Of a DNA stretch of 64,000 nt, positions 3,001 to 15,000 are shown in pieces. The number at the start of each line of letters is the position of its first letter. Within the stretch, counting starts at the first letter, position 1. Source of the DNA: Carcharhinus amblyrhynchos (taxonomy: Eukaryota); contig OZ336890.1 of NCBI GenBank assembly GCA_965287045.1, positions 30,132,001 to 30,196,000 of the forward strand, read 5' to 3'. Position numbers: made by a program.

Positions 3001-6000
3001 ACAACAATTGGACTGAATGTTAAAAAAAGGTTGCTCCGCAATGTTGTTCCTAGTGTTATGATGACATCAGATGATAATTGTTCAGTAGTTCCAATCCCAG
3101 AGGGATTTCTGGACCACAACCCTTTTCTTCTGTATTCTAAAAAATGGGAAGAAACCGTGCTAATCTCAGCTGCAAAGAAATCCAACAACCCTTTTGGATT
3201 TAAAAAATTAAAACTAAATGATTTATTAGCAAGAATAAAATAAAACTTAAGCACATTCATAGTCACAAAGTTAAAAATCATATAAAACATTCCCCAAAAG
3301 ACCCGTAAGTAAATACCTTCCAGGCAGAACTCCCTTATACATTTTTAACTAGTCCAGGTATATTACCAAAGGCAGAACAGGTGCCACCTTCGTATAGCAC
3401 ATAACCTCACAACCTTACCTCCACTCTGCTGTGGAAATCCAAGACACTTGAAAAACGAGACTGCTTTGCAACCTAAGACTTCTCTAGCTTGACTCAGCTT
3501 GATGGCTGATTCGAACTTTGTATCTTCTGCCAAGGCCCGAAAATGGCCGCAATCGGGACCATGCCCGAAATGGGCATGATGGCCAGTTAAATGCATTTGC
3601 CTGTGTTTCACTTATTGGGCTGCACGTCCAACTTTATCAGCACTTCCCCCTTTACCACTGCGTTTGCCCAACCAGATTCAGCCCAAGCCAGACGTGCTCC
3701 ATAAAAGTTCGATTCAGGTGTCTAGCGTCCGACGGCTCTCTGCTTGAGGTCGGTGGTGGGGGGGGGGGGGGGGGGGTGGGGGGAGAGGAAGTCTGCTGCC
3801 ACTCTGCTTAAGGTCGATTGGGGGGTAGGGGGGGTGGGTGCGGGAGGAGGGGATGGGCCTGCGATCGGTCCAGATGGCACAGAGGTGGGGAGGATAAGGA
3901 GGCCAGTAATGTTGGGGGGTTGGAGCAATGGGAGCCAGGGGGAGGCATTATCCAGCCTGGGAGCACTGTGGTAGGGGAGCCACATTCTATCTTTTTTTTC
4001 TGCGCGTGCGCAGTTGGAAGGGGCTGATCAGAGCTGCAGAATTTTGTGTGCGTTAAGCCCCACCCACAGGCTTCTACAGCACAATTTTTTCAGGCACAGT
4101 GCTTATGGGGGTGCCTGAGAACAGGCCTAAAAGTCGGATCTGAATCACTCCCAGTTTCAAGTCTGTCCAGCACTTAGAATGAAAATGGTAAGTGGCAATT
4201 TAGGATAGTCAATCCACCTAACCTTTGGACTGTGGAAGGTAACCGGAGCACCTGGAGGAAACCCATGCAGACACAGGGAGAACGTACAAACTCCACACGG
4301 ACAGACAGTCACACAAGGCCGGAATTGAACCCTGGCATTGTGAGGCAACAGTGCTAACGACTATGTCAGTGCGCTGCCCCTAAATAGGGATATGCTGAAT
4401 GTAGCTGTGGAATTTTGCAACCGTTGAGTGAATCACCACACTTATTTTTGAGATTGGGACTCTACCACAATTCCAAGAAATGTGAGCTGGCAAATAGCAA
4501 GAACTGCAGCTTCTATCAACTCCAGCTGCAGTGATAGCCTGATTCTAACCAATTAGACCTCTTATTTCTTCAGTGTTCATACATCTTAAAAGGATCCAGG
4601 TCAGTTGGGGAAGCTGGAGCCAAAGCATAGAGCTCTTTATTGAGTTTATTCCCTTATTTGGTGTCACAACTTTATCATCTCCAATATTCCAGCGATCCCT
4701 TATTTATTTGTGCTTGAAAACAATTACAACCCAACTATGTAATCAACATGACAGGAAACAAATTTATCAATGTAATGGGCATGATATCAACCACACAGAT
4801 TGCATTAATAATTTTCATGATTAAATGTGAGTATACATGTTCAAAACAAGAGCCTGTTAATGCTTTGGTACAATTTTTCATGAAGCCTAGCAGATTAGCA
4901 GAAAATTTATTCCTAAAATCAATATCGTCCAGGTCTTCCTCATTCAGCATTCCCTGTTGGAAATAAAGTTCAATAATGAAATGTAAAGTTACTACTACTC
5001 ATTGCAAATTATAAAATATATTCTGAGAGAGTTGCATACCGATTAAGTCTGATGTTGCTGATTTGGATCATGATCTCATGAGCGCTTTAATGAAAATGAA
5101 AATATTAGTTTTCGGGCAGCTTTTATGTTGGCAATGGTTACATTCATGCATAACATAATACATTGAACACTTTCCTGCCATTCTTTTTTCTGGTCATTAC
5201 ACTAAAGCACAAATAAGACATTAGTTAGTAGTGCAACAATCTAAAAAGTTACAGCCTTACTTAGCATTGCTTTATATGTGGTTGTCAATATATTAAAATT
5301 GTTAGCTTAATGTTCTAACTCTCATTTGGAAAATAAAATTGTTGGTCAATTTTAAAAATCAGTTCCCTGGAGTCCCATGAGCATAGCAAGCTGGAGCGCT
5401 CAATGATCTGATTTGACATCGAGTACAAAAGAATAAAGATCAAGGGGGCGATTCTCCTAGCCCACTGCACTGCTCTAGCAATGTAATGGGCCAGGGGACA
5501 TCAGAAGGCTGTTTCATGACCCCCTGAGCCTCTGTGCGTTTCAGGGGTCAAAATCTTTAGTGCCATCAGCTCTGCACCTGAAATTGGCATGGAGCTGATT
5601 TCAATAGTTAAATTATGAATAGCATATCGTTAAAGGGCCCGGACTGAAGTCTCTGGGCCCACTAGTCTATGGTATGGCTCGCTCCAACAGGGTTTACTAC
5701 TACTCCCCATGGCCAGAGATCCTGCTGGAGGAATCAGCGGCCATGGAGGCCTCCTCCTCAGTAGGTCAGAGTGAGGGGAGTGGCCTCTGGGCAGTGCCAG
5801 CATGGCCCCCTGGCAGTGTCCAACAGGCAAACTGTCAATGGCCGAGGGGCACATTGGCACTGCCCATTGGGCATCGGGCAGTGCCAAGGGGGCAGGGCCT
5901 ATTGGGGGACAGGGCTCATAGGGGGTGATCGGTGGGGATATCCCACTGCCACTCTGCACTGGGATTGTTGGCAGAAGGAGGTAAGTTGGTGATCGGGGCT

Positions 6001-12000: not shown

Positions 12001-15000
12001 AGCAGGAACTCCCCATTCATTGTGGAGCTCCACACATCCTAGTCCTCCAACATACTCATGGAGTTGGGCACAGTCTTTCATGAGTCATTGTTCATCCCCT
12101 TCCAAAGGTCTCCTCATGAACCCTACTTTTTACAAGGGGTCTTTTAAAAAGGTGATTGCCAAAGATCCTCTTCAAGCTCTTTATAACAAACTATGCCCCT
12201 GCACCCTCCCCCATGGCCCCTCAATCCCCCAATGTCAAATCATGGCATCCTACCCATCCTGATGGTCCGATGGACCCTCATACACCCATGTCAACTTTTG
12301 TCTCTTCACTACCTCTCAAGGCCCCTGGTGTCCCCAGTGCCAAGCTATGGTACTGCAATGCTTATTGACCTATTAATAAACTGTATAGTACAGCAATGAG
12401 CCCTATAATTAAAGTAGGATGTGTAAAATAAGCTTCAAAAAATTCATTCATTCATTACTTTCTACTCTGTTAAGGAAGTCACATTATGACAAGGGAATAA
12501 AGATATCAATCAGTAAGACCCTTTAATTTATCAATAACAGAAATCATAAACTCTTCAAACTGCTTCGCCTTCTGTAAAAAGAGTGAAATTGACCATATAG
12601 ATCAGAGTGCTGGACCTATCAGTGAAGCAATGTTTTCTCTGGGGTGCAGCTATTTAAGAAGTGTAATAGGGCTTCGTCAGTTCGCAGCAAATGTTCATGA
12701 TGTATGCTTGTCTAAGAGCCCAGGCATCCATTACTCTGTAAAGATCCATTATTCTTGAATGATGCAGTGAACACAAGTGAATTCTGTGTAGAAATATTGG
12801 GATAGAATCATATAATCATAGAGCCCTACAGTGCAGAAAGAGGCCCTTCGGCCTATCATGTCTGCACTGAACACAATCTCACCCAAGCCCTACCCACATA
12901 TATTACACCCACTAATCCCTTTAACCTACACATCTCTAGGTACTAAGGGACAATTTCTTATCATGGCCAATCAACCTAACCCGCACATCTTTGGACTGTG
13001 GGAGGAAACCGGAGTACCCGGAGGAAACCCACGCAGACACAAGGAGAACATGCAATCTCCACACAGACGGTAACCTGAGCCAGGAATTGAACCCAGGACC
13101 CTGGAGCTATGAAGCAGCAGTGCTAACCACTGTGCTACCGTGCCGTCCACAGTAGATAGTACATCTAAATTTTCATCCATGAGATTGGCAATGGGATTGG
13201 GAAAACTTATGGCTCAGCAAGCCTGTCTCTGGAGAAAGTGGCCATAAGACAAGATCTTCATTGGTGGGCGGGTATGGGCTGCAGTTGAGCCAGCTGACCC
13301 AGGAGAAGCACTTTCTGGAAGCAGAATGTTTAAAAGGCCTCTCCAGTACCTCAGCCAAGGTGGTTGTTTGTCATTTGTGAATCCTGAAAGTAAATTATGA
13401 CATGATTTCAACCACTGGCACCTTAAAACCAAGCTCAATCACTTTGTCACCCAATGTCAACTCATACATACTTTCAGAAGGTAGTATTGGAATTAACCAG
13501 ATACAGGGATTCTGTCTGATTTTATGCCATTATAGCCAATTTCAGACATACATGGCAAGCAATATTAAATCAACACAAGTATTTATCTATCCTTAGGAAC
13601 ATGAGACCATACTGACACAGAAAAGACCACTATTACAAATATTGATGTAACTCTATTAGTTTTCATCTTCAATGCCTGATTTGAAATATTTCAATCTCTT
13701 GTACTGTCCTCGTGACAAAAAGGGATTTTCTTTACCTACCTTTAACCAAAAGTTCTATATCTTTTGTTTTAAAACCACCGGATCCACAGTCTAGGAAAAG
13801 CTGATATTTTCCTTCATCCAAAATTTCCGTTTTGTTAATTATCAATATTACATTTCCTGGATTTATGAGACACCTTCTTGTTTCCAGGGCATTTGTTCCA
13901 TTTTCGCCTGTACATGGGATTTTAGTACCATTCACGTGAGTCCAACTACCGTTACATTCTTTCTGCGTTTTTGTCTTGTACTCACAAGCCAAAACAGTGC
14001 GCTTGTGATGGATCCCTGTGACTGAATTGTTACACTGGACAGTTACAAATGCATCTGAAATAAATATGATAATCTATTAGCACCTATCCTTTAAGGTATA
14101 GAAGCGCGAAATAGAAACATTGAATATGATACAAGTTATATACTGGTATTACTCACCACCAGCTTCAATGGTCACAAAGAAGGAAATCACAATAAAACAA
14201 AGAATTTTTGGAAAATGGTAAGTTGCCATTCTTTTCCAGGGCTTTCAAGAATCTGTTTAAAATATTGGAATAACTCATTACTGGCACATAATAAGTTTTG
14301 GGGACATTTGTTTTGCACTCAAATGCTATACTTATTTGGCACAATTAATTGAGACTGGGTGCTCAGGTTCCTGAGTCTTGTGTTCAAAAACAGATCAAGA
14401 CTTACATGGTTTTCTGCACATCCTACTTGTGATCTGAACACTGTGGTCTCCACTTTTGCTTATGCTGCAATCAGAACAGCAGCCTGAAACATGGACCACA
14501 GATTCCAGATAATAGCTCAGGATTTTTTATAACTGGCTAAATTGGTAAGTATGACATTGGTTTAACTACCCAACTAGGAATCAAGCTAGTGTTAAATCAA
14601 ATTGTTGGTGCAATGCTTATATCTGCAGTGTTTGAATGCGTGTCCTTCGACTTAGGGGGAAAAGATGGTAATATTTGAGCGAAGTGAATAAATAAAAATT
14701 GCAGTTCACAAAAGTGTGAATAATTTGACTCCAAGTCCTGATGAATGGGATAGTACTGAGGTAAAGAATCTGGGGGCGATCTTACCGCTTGTCACGATGG
14801 TCAATCAGCAGGGCGAGCCAATAAGATTGCAAGAGAGGCGAAGAAAATGGGAAGGGCGCGAGGCTGATGTAAATATTTCAATCTGCATTTCAATGATGTT
14901 AGTGAGCCCAGGACAGAATTGTTCAGGCTCACTTGCCTTAACAGCCACGGAGTTGTAGGTCCTCCCTGGCAAGGATCACCAGAAATGAGGACCAGTTGTG

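What the first reader, a model, noticed from the sequence alone, without database searches (positions are those of the whole stretch)
4940..14252. Divergent PD-L1/PD-L2-like B7 gene scattered among repeats
Seen: signal, IgV, IgC, TM, 45-nt and terminal micro-exons with matching splice sites, of which the ORF track shows only pieces. Known: this exon plan (ATG just after an acceptor, V, C, TM, short tail exon, tiny last exon) is that of CD274. The C domain mixes PD-L2-like GYPLAE/ANSS/NYSC and PD-L1-like EDKLYNITS motifs. Inference: a lineage-specific cartilaginous-fish PD-L paralogue, relevant because PD-L2 is usually regarded as a tetrapod duplicate.
Basis: partly seen in the sequence, partly recalled or inferred. 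Interest (0 to 1): 0.75.

Follow-up and report, generated by a model that had tools for sequence, protein, structure and literature searches.

The report
Divergent shark B7-family ligand gene
This is a real six-exon shark gene for a cell-surface protein of the B7 immune-ligand family, belonging to an unnamed lineage shared by sharks and rays that resembles PD-L1/PD-L2 but does not group with them, and this copy carries changes that may impair it.

Summary
The exons exist, on the minus strand: signal, V-like, C, TM, a 45-nt tail exon and a 14-nt terminal exon ending at 4940. Predicted shark proteins match the first four (tblastn E 3e-53, 3e-42, 4e-18). The nearest is Mustelus asterias "PD-L2-like".

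The gene belongs to a lineage found in 8 shark and 5 ray proteins, which NCBI names inconsistently: PD-L2-like, CD276-like, BTN1A1-like, NCAM L1.1-like or uncharacterized.

The C domain is of B7 type, with PD-L2 the best single-domain PDB match. The V domain folds as IgV (pLDDT 88) but lacks the canonical F-strand cysteine in 14 of 14 rows.

In a V-C tree the lineage lies outside a strongly supported PD-L clade. A sister position is not rejected (p-AU 0.12). Synteny cannot be tested, because the window holds no neighbouring gene.

The window copy has lost the ancestral V-C acceptor, has one conserved cysteine replaced by tyrosine, has an in-frame TGA in the 45-nt exon, and evolves faster than its Mustelus sister.

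Its PD-L-paralogue reading is only partly supported.

The parts
14157..14229 (-). Signal-peptide exon (ATG at 14229; 24 codons plus 1 base, phase 1; donor GTGAGT at 14156)
   Evidence: P0001. 22 of 24 residues are identical to Mustelus P0005. tblastn.
13736..14054 (-). V-like Ig exon. The acceptor AG is at 14056-14055. There are two candidate donors: 13740|GT (ancestral, phase 1) and 13736|GT (phase 2).
   Evidence: 66% identical to Mustelus over 100% of the exon. AlphaFold model pLDDT 88.2 with an Ig V-like strand order. Foldseek returns IgV domains. No Pfam or PDB sequence hit. Six Cys and five N-x-S/T sequons.
11522..11760 (-). C-type Ig exon. The first acceptor is ttttcag| at 11760 (phase 2) and a second AG gives a start at 11755 (phase 1). 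Donor A|GTAAGT after 11522. A branch-point-like cactaac lies at 11806-11800.
   Evidence: Pfam C2-set_3 7.3e-06, 26.3 bits, just under the cut-off of 27. PDB hits to PD-L2, CD276 and PD-L1. 89% identical to Mustelus and sister to it in the C-only tree.
8324..8478 (-). Stalk, transmembrane and juxtamembrane exon (phase 1 in and out; donor G|GTACAA)
   Evidence: P0004. tblastn to Mustelus E 3.6e-18. The helix at the homologous place in the Mustelus model spans residues 244-270.
5040..5084 (-). 45-nt cytoplasmic-tail exon (AG 5086-5085, GT 5039-5038) with an in-frame TGA at 5070..5068
   Evidence: Local alignment to orthologue tails: best score 38 (Pristis), also 33 (S. torazame), 31 (Heterodontus) and 28 (Heptranchias). 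0 of 200 shuffles reached 38; their maximum was 34.
4940..4953 (-). Terminal micro-exon (acceptor AG 4955-4954). It reads a split codon, then N-A-E and TGA at 4942..4940.
   Evidence: It matches the last residues of Mustelus isoform X2.
4906..4911 (-). AATAAA, a candidate polyadenylation signal 29 nt after the stop
   Evidence: Read directly. No transcript evidence.
7188..7496 (.). SINE-like repeat in the intron between the TM and tail exons
   Evidence: blastn, 74% identity over 322 nt to the copy at 12800-13150
12800..13150 (.). SINE-like repeat in the V-C intron
   Evidence: Query element. It matches 11 places in the window, itself included.

Best explanation
Window 4940-14229 (minus strand) holds a genuine protein-coding gene of a cartilaginous fish. 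It encodes a type-I membrane glycoprotein of the B7 family: a signal peptide, one V-like Ig domain, one C-type Ig domain, a short stalk, a transmembrane helix and a very short tail.

It is the orthologue of an unnamed B7 lineage present in sharks and rays. That lineage sits in the PD-L/B7-H3 part of the family but outside the PD-L1/PD-L2 clade of bony vertebrates. Its hallmark is a V domain that has lost the canonical B-F disulfide. It keeps an invariant pair of cysteines on the A and B strands, and sharks have four further conserved cysteines.

Inferred, not shown: the protein sits on the cell surface and presents its fast-evolving V domain to an Ig-superfamily receptor on lymphocytes, as other B7 ligands do. 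Signalling would be mostly in trans, because the tail is short and poorly conserved.

The copy in this window shows lineage-specific damage or remodelling. The ancestral V-C acceptor is lost, a conserved C-domain cysteine is replaced by tyrosine, there is a stop codon in the 45-nt tail exon, and substitution is faster than in the sister species. It may therefore be a remodelled functional gene or one under relaxed constraint.
For: **Gene reality**
- tblastn E 2.8e-53, 2.8e-42 and 3.6e-18.
- It is the only such copy in the 64 kb.

**Orthologues**
- 9 shark proteins at E 2e-184 to 3e-43 with the Mustelus query.
- Ray proteins from Hemitrygon, Hypanus, Mobula and Pristis.
- The family is one clade at 93/88, sharks at 100/99*, rays at 100/97*.
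- The window C exon is sister to Mustelus (SH-aLRT 93) inside the family (99*).

**B7 type**
- PDB sequence hits of the C exon: PD-L2 7.8e-06, four-Ig CD276 1e-07 (two domains of about 16 bits each), PD-L1 about 0.015.
- Mustelus orthologue: PD-L2 35.4 bits, two-Ig CD276 33-34, PD-L1 24.9.
- hhalign against a PD-L profile: 99.4%, E 2e-21.
- Foldseek of the Mustelus model: BTN3A1 7.9e-14, PD-L1 1.5e-12, PD-L2 1.8e-12 (TMt 0.83, rmsd 2.6, 24% identity), CD276 2.7e-12.

**V fold**
- pLDDT 88.2, pTM 0.79 for the best of five models.

**Cysteine pattern**
- F-strand Cys in 0 of 14 family rows, against 21 of 21 PD-L rows.
- The A- and B-strand Cys are invariant.

**Position outside PD-L**
- The PD-L clade is 100/98*. 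A CD276-like protein plus PD-L group at 96/83*. The family plus the unnamed P0030 group at 98/95*.

**Changes in the window copy**
-.
- Relative rate: 22 window-derived against 9 Mustelus-derived changes, p 0.029.
Against: - The tree lacks the references that matter most: a canonical shark PD-L1, mammalian PD-L1 and PD-L2, CD80, CD86, ICOSLG, B7-H4, HHLA2 and B7-H6.
- A clade of family plus P0030 plus PD-L is not rejected (lnL 4.7 lower, p-AU 0.121).
- The family branch and P0030 are long, so attraction away from PD-L is possible.
- PD-L2 is the best single-domain match of the C exon. It also has the best TM-score and identity for the two-domain model.
- 4 of 13 orthologues keep a G-Y-D motif like the G-A-D-Y-K of PD-L.
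- Four of the five V-exon models had lower confidence (70.9, 66.9, 39.9, 31.2).
- Pfam finds no V-set match for the V exon, and the C exon stays just below the curated cut-off.
- Surface expression, the receptor and the function are inferred from family membership only.
- No transcript evidence exists for this copy.
Confidence: 0.65

Rival explanations
1. One reading: the lineage is a PD-L paralogue that arose by duplication of the single ancestral PD-L gene in cartilaginous fish. It then diverged quickly, especially in the V domain.
For: - PD-L2 is the top single-domain hit of the C exon (27.4 bits).
- PD-L2 gives the best TM-score and identity for the V-C model.
- The L of the GYPL motif is present in 13 of 14 rows.
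- A Phe lies at the N-terminal strand, as in the PD-L consensus.
- The D122-column Asp is kept in Heterodontus, Heptranchias, Mobula and Pristis.
- A clade with PD-L is not rejected if P0030 goes along (p-AU 0.121).
- NCBI calls the Mustelus orthologue PD-L2-like.
Against: - The free tree puts a CD276-like protein nearer to PD-L than this lineage (96/83*).
- Holding the family alone with PD-L is rejected (p-AU 0.011).
- Scores against CD276 equal those against PD-L.
- The G172-type Gly is absent in 14 of 14 rows and the F-strand Cys in 14 of 14.
- Kondo et al. 2025 (PMC12151841; sections 12 and 22 and the Figure 4 legend read) report a second PD-L gene only in tetrapods.
Confidence: 0.22
2. 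The lineage is itself the single PD-L1 orthologue of cartilaginous fish, only fast-evolving.
For: - It has the same exon plan.
- It is PD-L-like in the C domain.
- It branches outside the bony-vertebrate PD-L clade, which is where a chondrichthyan orthologue would sit if CD276 were misplaced.
Against: - Kondo et al. 2025 (sections 12 and 22 read; their sequences are in a supplement I could not open) describe shark and ray PD-L1 as well conserved. They report F19 and D122 kept and the L150/G172 motif present.
- Here D122 is kept in only 4 of 13 orthologues and G172 in none.
- The V exon matches no V-set model.
- Automated names scatter over four families.
Confidence: 0.06
3. The copy in this window is a pseudogene or a gene in decay. 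This does not conflict with the family assignment.
For: - The sequence coding for the motif APYTVPQ at the start of the C exon is present in 12 of 13 orthologues (ARYTVPQ in Mustelus). In the window the same place reads KHVFSQ, with no AG at the ancestral position.
- The ancestral donor plus the first acceptor is out of frame.
- A Cys that is at least 90% conserved is Tyr here.
- There is a TGA in the 45-nt exon.
- 22 window-derived changes stand against 9 Mustelus-derived ones (p 0.029).
- The terminal branch in the C-only tree is 0.095, against 0.021 for Mustelus.
Against: - All four large exons are open with no frameshift.
- All six V-domain cysteines and eight sequons are kept.
- Two in-frame donor-acceptor pairings exist.
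- The Mustelus X2 isoform also lacks the 45-nt exon. The TGA lies 28 nt before that exon's end, so under the usual 50-55 nt rule it should not trigger mRNA decay (textbook knowledge).
- The stalk Cys lost here is also lost in Mustelus, so the lost Cys-to-Tyr partner could be a compensated pair. That is my inference.
Confidence: 0.3
4. It is a B7-H3 (CD276) or butyrophilin relative, as some automated names say.
For: - NCBI names: CD276 antigen-like (Heptranchias) and BTN1A1-like (four ray proteins).
- The CD276 two-Ig form scores 33-34 bits with the Mustelus protein.
- BTN3A1 is the top Foldseek hit by E-value.
- Pfam's best C-domain model is the butyrophilin-type C2-set_3.
Against: - The CD276-like protein groups with PD-L, not with this lineage.
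- BTN1 scores lowest in hhalign (42.5, against 71-84 for PD-L and CD276).
- No B30.2 domain: orthologues are 272-300 aa and carry only Ig families in the precomputed Pfam lists.
Confidence: 0.08

Closest known systems
PD-L2 (PDCD1LG2, B7-DC) and PD-L1 (CD274, B7-H1)
   Same: - Signal, V, C, TM, short tail exon and tiny last exon.
- The C domain carries GYPL-A-E, an N-x-S just before the F-strand Cys, and an L-Y-N-I-T-S run.
- The best single-domain PDB hit is mouse PD-L2.
- Profile-profile match 99.4%.
- N-terminal Phe of the V domain.
   Different: - Outside the PD-L clade in the tree.
- No F-strand Cys.
- Asp of the D122 column kept in only 4 of 13 orthologues, and Lys in the window.
- No Gly at the G172 position.
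- The V exon gives no sequence hit to any PD-L structure.
- PD-1 binding untested.
B7-H3 (CD276)
   Same: Equal sequence similarity (33-34 bits against 35 for PD-L2; hhalign 80.9 against 83.7). Both have a V-C unit and the G-Y-P-x-A-x-x-x-W-Q motif.
   Different: The CD276-like reference groups with PD-L rather than with this lineage (96/83*). CD276 keeps the canonical V disulfide.
Unnamed protein P0030 (379 aa, V-C-C, taxon unknown)
   Same: Sister to the lineage at 98/95*. It shares the A-strand Cys and B-strand Cys, and a non-Cys residue (Trp) at the F-strand position.
   Different: It has two C domains and a very long branch (1.63). Its best PDB match is CD276 (49 bits).
Butyrophilins
   Same: The V-C ectodomain fold. 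BTN3A1, BTN2A1 and BTN1A1 top the Foldseek list.
   Different: No B30.2 domain. BTN1 gives the lowest profile score (42.5). BTN rows served as the outgroup in the trees.

Membership tests
B7 family (IgV-IgC membrane ligands) | Signal peptide, one V and one C Ig domain, and a TM segment, each on its own exon | tested here: met
   Exons. Homology to full-length shark proteins. The TM helix is modelled in the orthologue.
B7 family (IgV-IgC membrane ligands) | C domain of the B7/butyrophilin type by sequence | tested here: met
   PDB hits to PD-L2, CD276, PD-L1 and BTN1A1. hhalign 99.4% to the PD-L profile. Pfam C2-set_3 is 0.7 bits below its curated cut-off.
B7 family (IgV-IgC membrane ligands) | V domain with the canonical B-F disulfide | tested here: not met
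   F-strand Cys in 0 of 14 family rows, against 21 of 21 PD-L rows and the CD276-like row. The fold is still Ig V-like.
B7 family (IgV-IgC membrane ligands) | A-P-Y type V-C junction at the start of the C exon | tested here: not met
   Present in 12 of 13 orthologues (A-R-Y in Mustelus). The window reads KHVFSQ there and has no AG at the ancestral site.
PD-L1/PD-L2 | Groups inside the PD-L clade in a B7 phylogeny | tested here: not met
   PD-L clade 100/98* without the lineage. CD276-like plus PD-L 96/83*. The same holds with the C domain alone. A sister position is not rejected (p-AU 0.121). No canonical shark PD-L1 or mammalian B7 references were in the set.
PD-L1/PD-L2 | PD-1 contact residues F19 and D122 (numbering of Kondo et al. 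2025) | tested here: inconclusive
   Phe is present at the N-terminal strand in 14 of 14 rows. At the D122 column, Asp occurs in 21 of 21 PD-L rows and 4 of 13 orthologues, and the window has Lys.
PD-L1/PD-L2 | IgC shoulder motif L150 plus G172 (Kondo et al. 2025, said to be shared by shark and ray PD-L1) | tested here: not met
   Leu in 13 of 14 rows. Gly at the aligned position in 0 of 14.
PD-L1/PD-L2 | Synteny with JAK2, PLGRKT, RIC1 | not testable with these tools
   214 of the 241 ORFs of 70 aa or more were scanned with Pfam. Besides this gene's own C exon, the credible matches were one ferritin-like ORF and reverse-transcriptase fragments. No vertebrate genome collection was available.
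PD-L1/PD-L2 | Binds PD-1 | not tested
   No shark PD-1 sequence was in hand, and no complex job was sent.
Butyrophilins | Cytoplasmic B30.2 (PRY/SPRY) domain | tested here: not met
   The tail has at most about 20 residues. Orthologues are 272-300 aa with Ig-only Pfam lists.
B7-H3 (CD276) | Groups with CD276 in a phylogeny | tested here: not met
   The one CD276-like reference groups with PD-L. This rests on a single reference.

The most novel reading that the evidence does not exclude
Sharks and rays carry an ancient, still unnamed B7 lineage that is neither PD-L nor B7-H3. It may date back to the common ancestor of cartilaginous fish if P0030 proves to be a chimaera or a bony-vertebrate protein. 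Its V domain has replaced the canonical Ig disulfide with a different cysteine framework. It could be the missing ligand of one of the orphan CD28-family receptors (CD28X, CD28HL1, CD28HL2) that Quiniou et al. 2024 (PMC11599192; passages read) found in Chondrichthyes. The fast V-domain divergence (66% against 89% identity for C between the window and Mustelus) would then reflect receptor-ligand co-evolution.
Probability: 0.12. Interest if true: 0.7.

Novelty: new member of a known kind. Interest (0 to 1): 0.4.

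Why it matters
The PD-1/PD-L axis was only recently traced back to sharks, and the literature I read states that fish have a single PD-L gene. A PD-L-like gene shared by sharks and rays, which annotation pipelines label in four incompatible ways, suggests the B7 repertoire of cartilaginous fish is incompletely catalogued.

If the lineage is a separate B7 branch, it is a candidate partner for orphan CD28-family receptors. It is also an example of an Ig V domain that works without the canonical disulfide. If it is a PD-L duplicate, the statement that PD-L duplicated only in tetrapods needs a footnote.

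For this window alone the result is more modest. It is a new, possibly impaired, member of that lineage.

Tried and rejected
- **Pfam and PDB sequence searches of the V exon.** Nothing useful: 0 families, and 1 irrelevant hit at E 0.73.
- **ESM Atlas look-alikes.** Generic only. The V exon gave V-set clusters. The Mustelus ectodomain gave CD200R, CD200, HHLA2, BTN and PD-L1 clusters at 0.92-0.94. A CD200-like reading was dropped, because CD200 does not appear among the 60 PDB matches shown of 71.
- **Name look-up for unnamed proteins.** The species of P0030, P0020, P0036 and P0041 stay unknown.
- **Canonical shark PD-L1.** My third and last homologue search returned lizard, bird, amphibian and ray-finned fish PD-L proteins and ray family members, but no shark PD-L1. 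Kondo et al.'s sequences are in a closed supplement.
- **A second 45-nt AG..GT stretch.** It is open in frame at 5305..5261 but has no similarity to any orthologue tail, so I set it aside.
- **Synteny.** No neighbour gene was found. Exons under 70 aa were not screened.
- **Literature.** Searches found no paper on this lineage. Four NCBI locus names gave 0 papers.
- **Joined model.** Exons were handled one at a time, and natural orthologues stood in for the whole protein.

Full report
**1. What is in the sequence**

The window has no N. I do not take it for human: its introns hold SINE-like elements and its best protein matches are shark proteins.

Stop-to-stop ORFs on the minus strand contain three large pieces: 13732..14073, 11367..11876 and 8231..8545. 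Reading the splice signals gives six exons.

| Exon | Coordinates (minus strand) | Notes |
|---|---|---|
| Signal | 14229..14157 | P0001, |
| V-like | 14054..13740 or ..13736 | P0002, |
| C | 11760 or 11755..11522 | |
| Stalk and TM | 8478..8324 | P0004, |
| 45-nt tail | 5084..5040 | |
| Terminal | 4953..4940 | N-A-E-stop, |

An AATAAA follows at 4911..4906.

Each exon was searched alone, and natural full-length orthologues served as stand-ins for the whole protein.

**2. Is it more than chance?**

Yes.
- The V exon alone retrieved three shark proteins: Mustelus asterias 'PD-L2-like isoform X2' (66% identity, E 3e-36), Carcharodon 'NCAM L1.1-like' and a Cetorhinus uncharacterized protein.
- tblastn of these proteins against the window hits only the exons named above, at E 2.8e-53, 2.8e-42 and 3.6e-18.
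- Proteins under 700 aa fetched up to one search likewise hit nothing else in the 64 kb at E up to 0.05.
- The small tail exon was found by aligning orthologue C-termini to the three frames of 4957-8323. The best score was 38, at 5085..5041. 200 shuffled tails gave a mean of 24.1 and a maximum of 34.

**3. The family**

With the Mustelus protein as query, 9 proteins came back, all from sharks: Mustelus, Carcharodon, Cetorhinus (two isoforms), Scyliorhinus torazame, S. canicula, Heterodontus, Heptranchias and Chiloscyllium.

A profile search also brought in ray proteins from Hemitrygon, Hypanus (three loci on one contig), Mobula and Pristis.

NCBI's names for these proteins are PD-L2-like, NCAM L1.1-like, CD276 antigen-like, BTN1A1-like or uncharacterized. 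The pipelines clearly cannot place the lineage.

I found no paper on it. Searches turned up nothing, and four locus names gave 0 papers.

**4. Domain evidence**

*C exon*
- Pfam's best model is C2-set_3: 7.3e-06, 26.3 bits against a cut-off of 27.
- In the PDB, the best single domain is mouse PD-L2 (27.4 bits). CD276 domains give about 16 bits each and PD-L1 about 19.
- HMMER against 1.84 billion representatives found 60 proteins at E up to 0.001. Apart from giant multi-Ig proteins, these were family members, ray-finned fish and lizard PD-L proteins, a CD276-like protein and teleost multi-unit B7-like proteins.

*V exon*
- It has no Pfam hit and no meaningful PDB sequence hit.
- With 13 orthologues as the alignment, it folds as an Ig V-like sandwich. 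The best model has pLDDT 88.2 and pTM 0.79; the other four models scored 70.9, 66.9, 39.9 and 31.2.
- Foldseek returns antibody V domains, titin, CRIg, CD155, MPZ and PD-L1 V (TMq 0.76-0.78). This shows the fold but not the subfamily.

*Whole Mustelus protein*
- The model has pLDDT 77.9.
- It matches butyrophilins (7.9e-14), PD-L1 (1.5e-12), PD-L2 (1.8e-12, with the highest TMt 0.83, rmsd 2.6 and 24% identity) and CD276 (2.7e-12).

**5. What sets the V domain apart**

In an alignment of 14 family rows, P0030, 21 PD-L rows and one CD276-like row:
- All 21 PD-L rows and the CD276-like row have the F-strand Cys. None of the 14 family rows has it; they carry L, I, F or Y there. P0030 has W.
- The family keeps an invariant Cys on the first strand and the B-strand Cys.
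- Sharks add four more conserved Cys, and all six are present in the window.
- All 21 PD-L rows have Asp at the column that Kondo et al. call D122. In the family, Asp is kept in Heterodontus, Heptranchias, Mobula and Pristis (4 of 13). The window has Lys.
- The N-terminal Phe is present in all 14 rows.

**6. Phylogeny**

*V-C tree.* I built it from 46 V-C units of database proteins, with no window row (IQ-TREE, LG+C20+F+G4).
- The family is one clade at 93/88.
- The unnamed P0030 is its sister at 98/95*.
- PD-L of tetrapods and ray-finned fish form a clade at 100/98*, and a CD276-like protein joins that clade at 96/83*.
- The family therefore lies outside PD-L.

*AU tests.*
- Holding the family with PD-L is rejected (lnL 17.3 lower, p 0.011).
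- Holding the family plus P0030 with PD-L is not rejected (lnL 4.7 lower, p 0.121).

*C-domain-only tree.* It includes the window exon, which comes out as sister to Mustelus (93) inside the family (99*). The backbone is unresolved.

*Profile scores of the family against single proteins.* These do not separate PD-L from CD276: ray-finned PD-L1 83.7, CD276-like 80.9, caecilian PD-L 71.0, teleost B7-like 70.8 and BTN1 42.5.

*Limits.* The set holds no canonical shark PD-L1 and no mammalian PD-L1 or PD-L2. It also lacks CD80, CD86, ICOSLG, B7-H4, HHLA2 and B7-H6. There is only one CD276-like row, and some branches are long.

**7. Relation to published work**

Kondo et al. 2025 (PMC12151841; I read the outline, sections 12 and 22, and passages) report:
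- a PD-L1 in cartilaginous fish that is well conserved;
- F19 and D122 conserved in it;
- the L150/G172 IgC motif shared with PD-L2;
- a second PD-L gene found only in tetrapods.

Their shark sequences are in a supplement I could not open.

The present lineage keeps the Leu (13 of 14 rows) but never the Gly (0 of 14), and mostly lacks the Asp. It is therefore probably not their PD-L1. That conclusion rests on their description, not on a direct comparison.

Quiniou et al. 2024 (PMC11599192; passages read) describe CD28-family receptors in Chondrichthyes without known ligands: CD28X, CD28HL1 and CD28HL2. This makes an orphan B7 ligand plausible. No evidence links the two.

**8. The copy in this window**

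Compared with the orthologues it shows four oddities.

1. *Lost acceptor.*
   - 12 of 13 orthologues begin the C exon with A-P-Y-T-V-P-Q, or close variants (A-R-Y in Mustelus).
   - The window reads KHVFSQ there, with no AG at the ancestral site.
   - The first AG after a branch-point-like cactaac is at 11762-11761.
   - Joined to the ancestral phase-1 donor, that acceptor is out of frame and stops after 34 codons.
   - The frame is kept only by a second donor four bases downstream (13736) with that acceptor, or by the ancestral donor with a second AG five bases further on.
   - Either pairing shortens the V-C junction by several residues.
2. *Lost cysteines.* A C-domain Cys conserved in at least 90% of orthologues is Tyr here. 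The stalk Cys is missing in both the window and Mustelus. My inference is that these two formed a pair that has now been lost on both sides.
3. *Stop in the tail exon.* The 45-nt exon has TGA at 5070..5068. The Mustelus X2 isoform lacks this exon and ends as the window's terminal exon does.
4. *Faster change.* With seven other sharks as outgroup, 22 residue changes are derived in the window and 9 in Mustelus (binomial p 0.029; 29 differences could not be polarised).

Against decay: the four large exons are open, the six V-domain cysteines are kept, and there are eight sequons. I put the chance that this copy is non-functional at about 0.3.

**9. Mechanism**

Shown: the gene structure, the Ig folds, the TM helix, the short tail and B7-type homology.

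Inferred from the family: a glycosylated surface ligand whose V domain engages an Ig-superfamily receptor on lymphocytes. The receptor is unknown.

The V domain evolves much faster than the C domain (66% against 89% identity to Mustelus). This fits a binding surface under changing selection but does not prove it.

**10. Surroundings**

Pfam scans covered 214 of the 241 ORFs of 70 aa or more; 27 low-complexity ORFs were dropped. Besides the C exon, they found only an intronless ferritin-like ORF and reverse-transcriptase fragments. The proposed synteny test cannot be done in this window.

**11. Verdict**

The gene is a new member of an unnamed elasmobranch B7 lineage that looks like PD-L but is not demonstrably PD-L. 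The claim of a PD-L2-like paralogue is only partly supported.

Noticed in passing
window 26116-26685 (+): An intronless 190-aa ORF with a full ferritin-like domain (Pfam Ferritin 1.2e-33, 116 bits). With no introns and a divergent C-terminal end, it looks like a processed ferritin heavy-chain retrocopy.
   Followed up: partly
window 586-1509, 28070-28534, 32955-34441, 39204-39746, 47740-49266 (+/-), 51577-52707 (-), 62629-63033 (-): Many fragments of one LINE-type reverse-transcriptase family. The longest ORF is 509 aa with RVT_1 at 1.4e-33. The copies share long near-identical C-terminal stretches.
   Followed up: partly
window 16979-17427; 18976-19599; 59935-60902: Three large tandem arrays: a 16-nt unit x 28.6 copies, a 20-22-nt unit x 24-29 copies, and a 35-nt unit x 27.7 copies at 88% match.
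   Followed up: no
window 4189-4365, 7188-7496, 12800-13150, 16312-16530, 25191-25364, 35390-35589, 40615-40732, 47765-47886, 49830-50136, 54988-55282, 61541-61738: Eleven copies or fragments of one SINE-like element, 69-82% identical to the copy at 12800-13150.
   Followed up: partly
window 8308-8379 (-), TM exon: The Carcharodon and Cetorhinus proteins align to the 3' part of the TM exon in a different reading frame from Mustelus and the window (50% identity over 24 residues, but E only 0.74). This hints that the cytoplasmic tails of lamniform and carcharhiniform orthologues differ by a frameshift.
   Followed up: no
database proteins P0016, P0075, P0076/P0077 (Hypanus sabinus) and P0073 (Hemitrygon akajei): Stingrays have several loci of this lineage on one contig. 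Some predictions carry a duplicated C domain (V-C-C). This points to tandem expansion in rays.
   Followed up: no
database protein P0020 (624 aa, unnamed): A predicted protein made of two complete PD-L-like V-C-TM units in series. It groups with the amphibian PD-L rows (82/72). It is probably two neighbouring PD-L genes fused by gene prediction.
   Followed up: no
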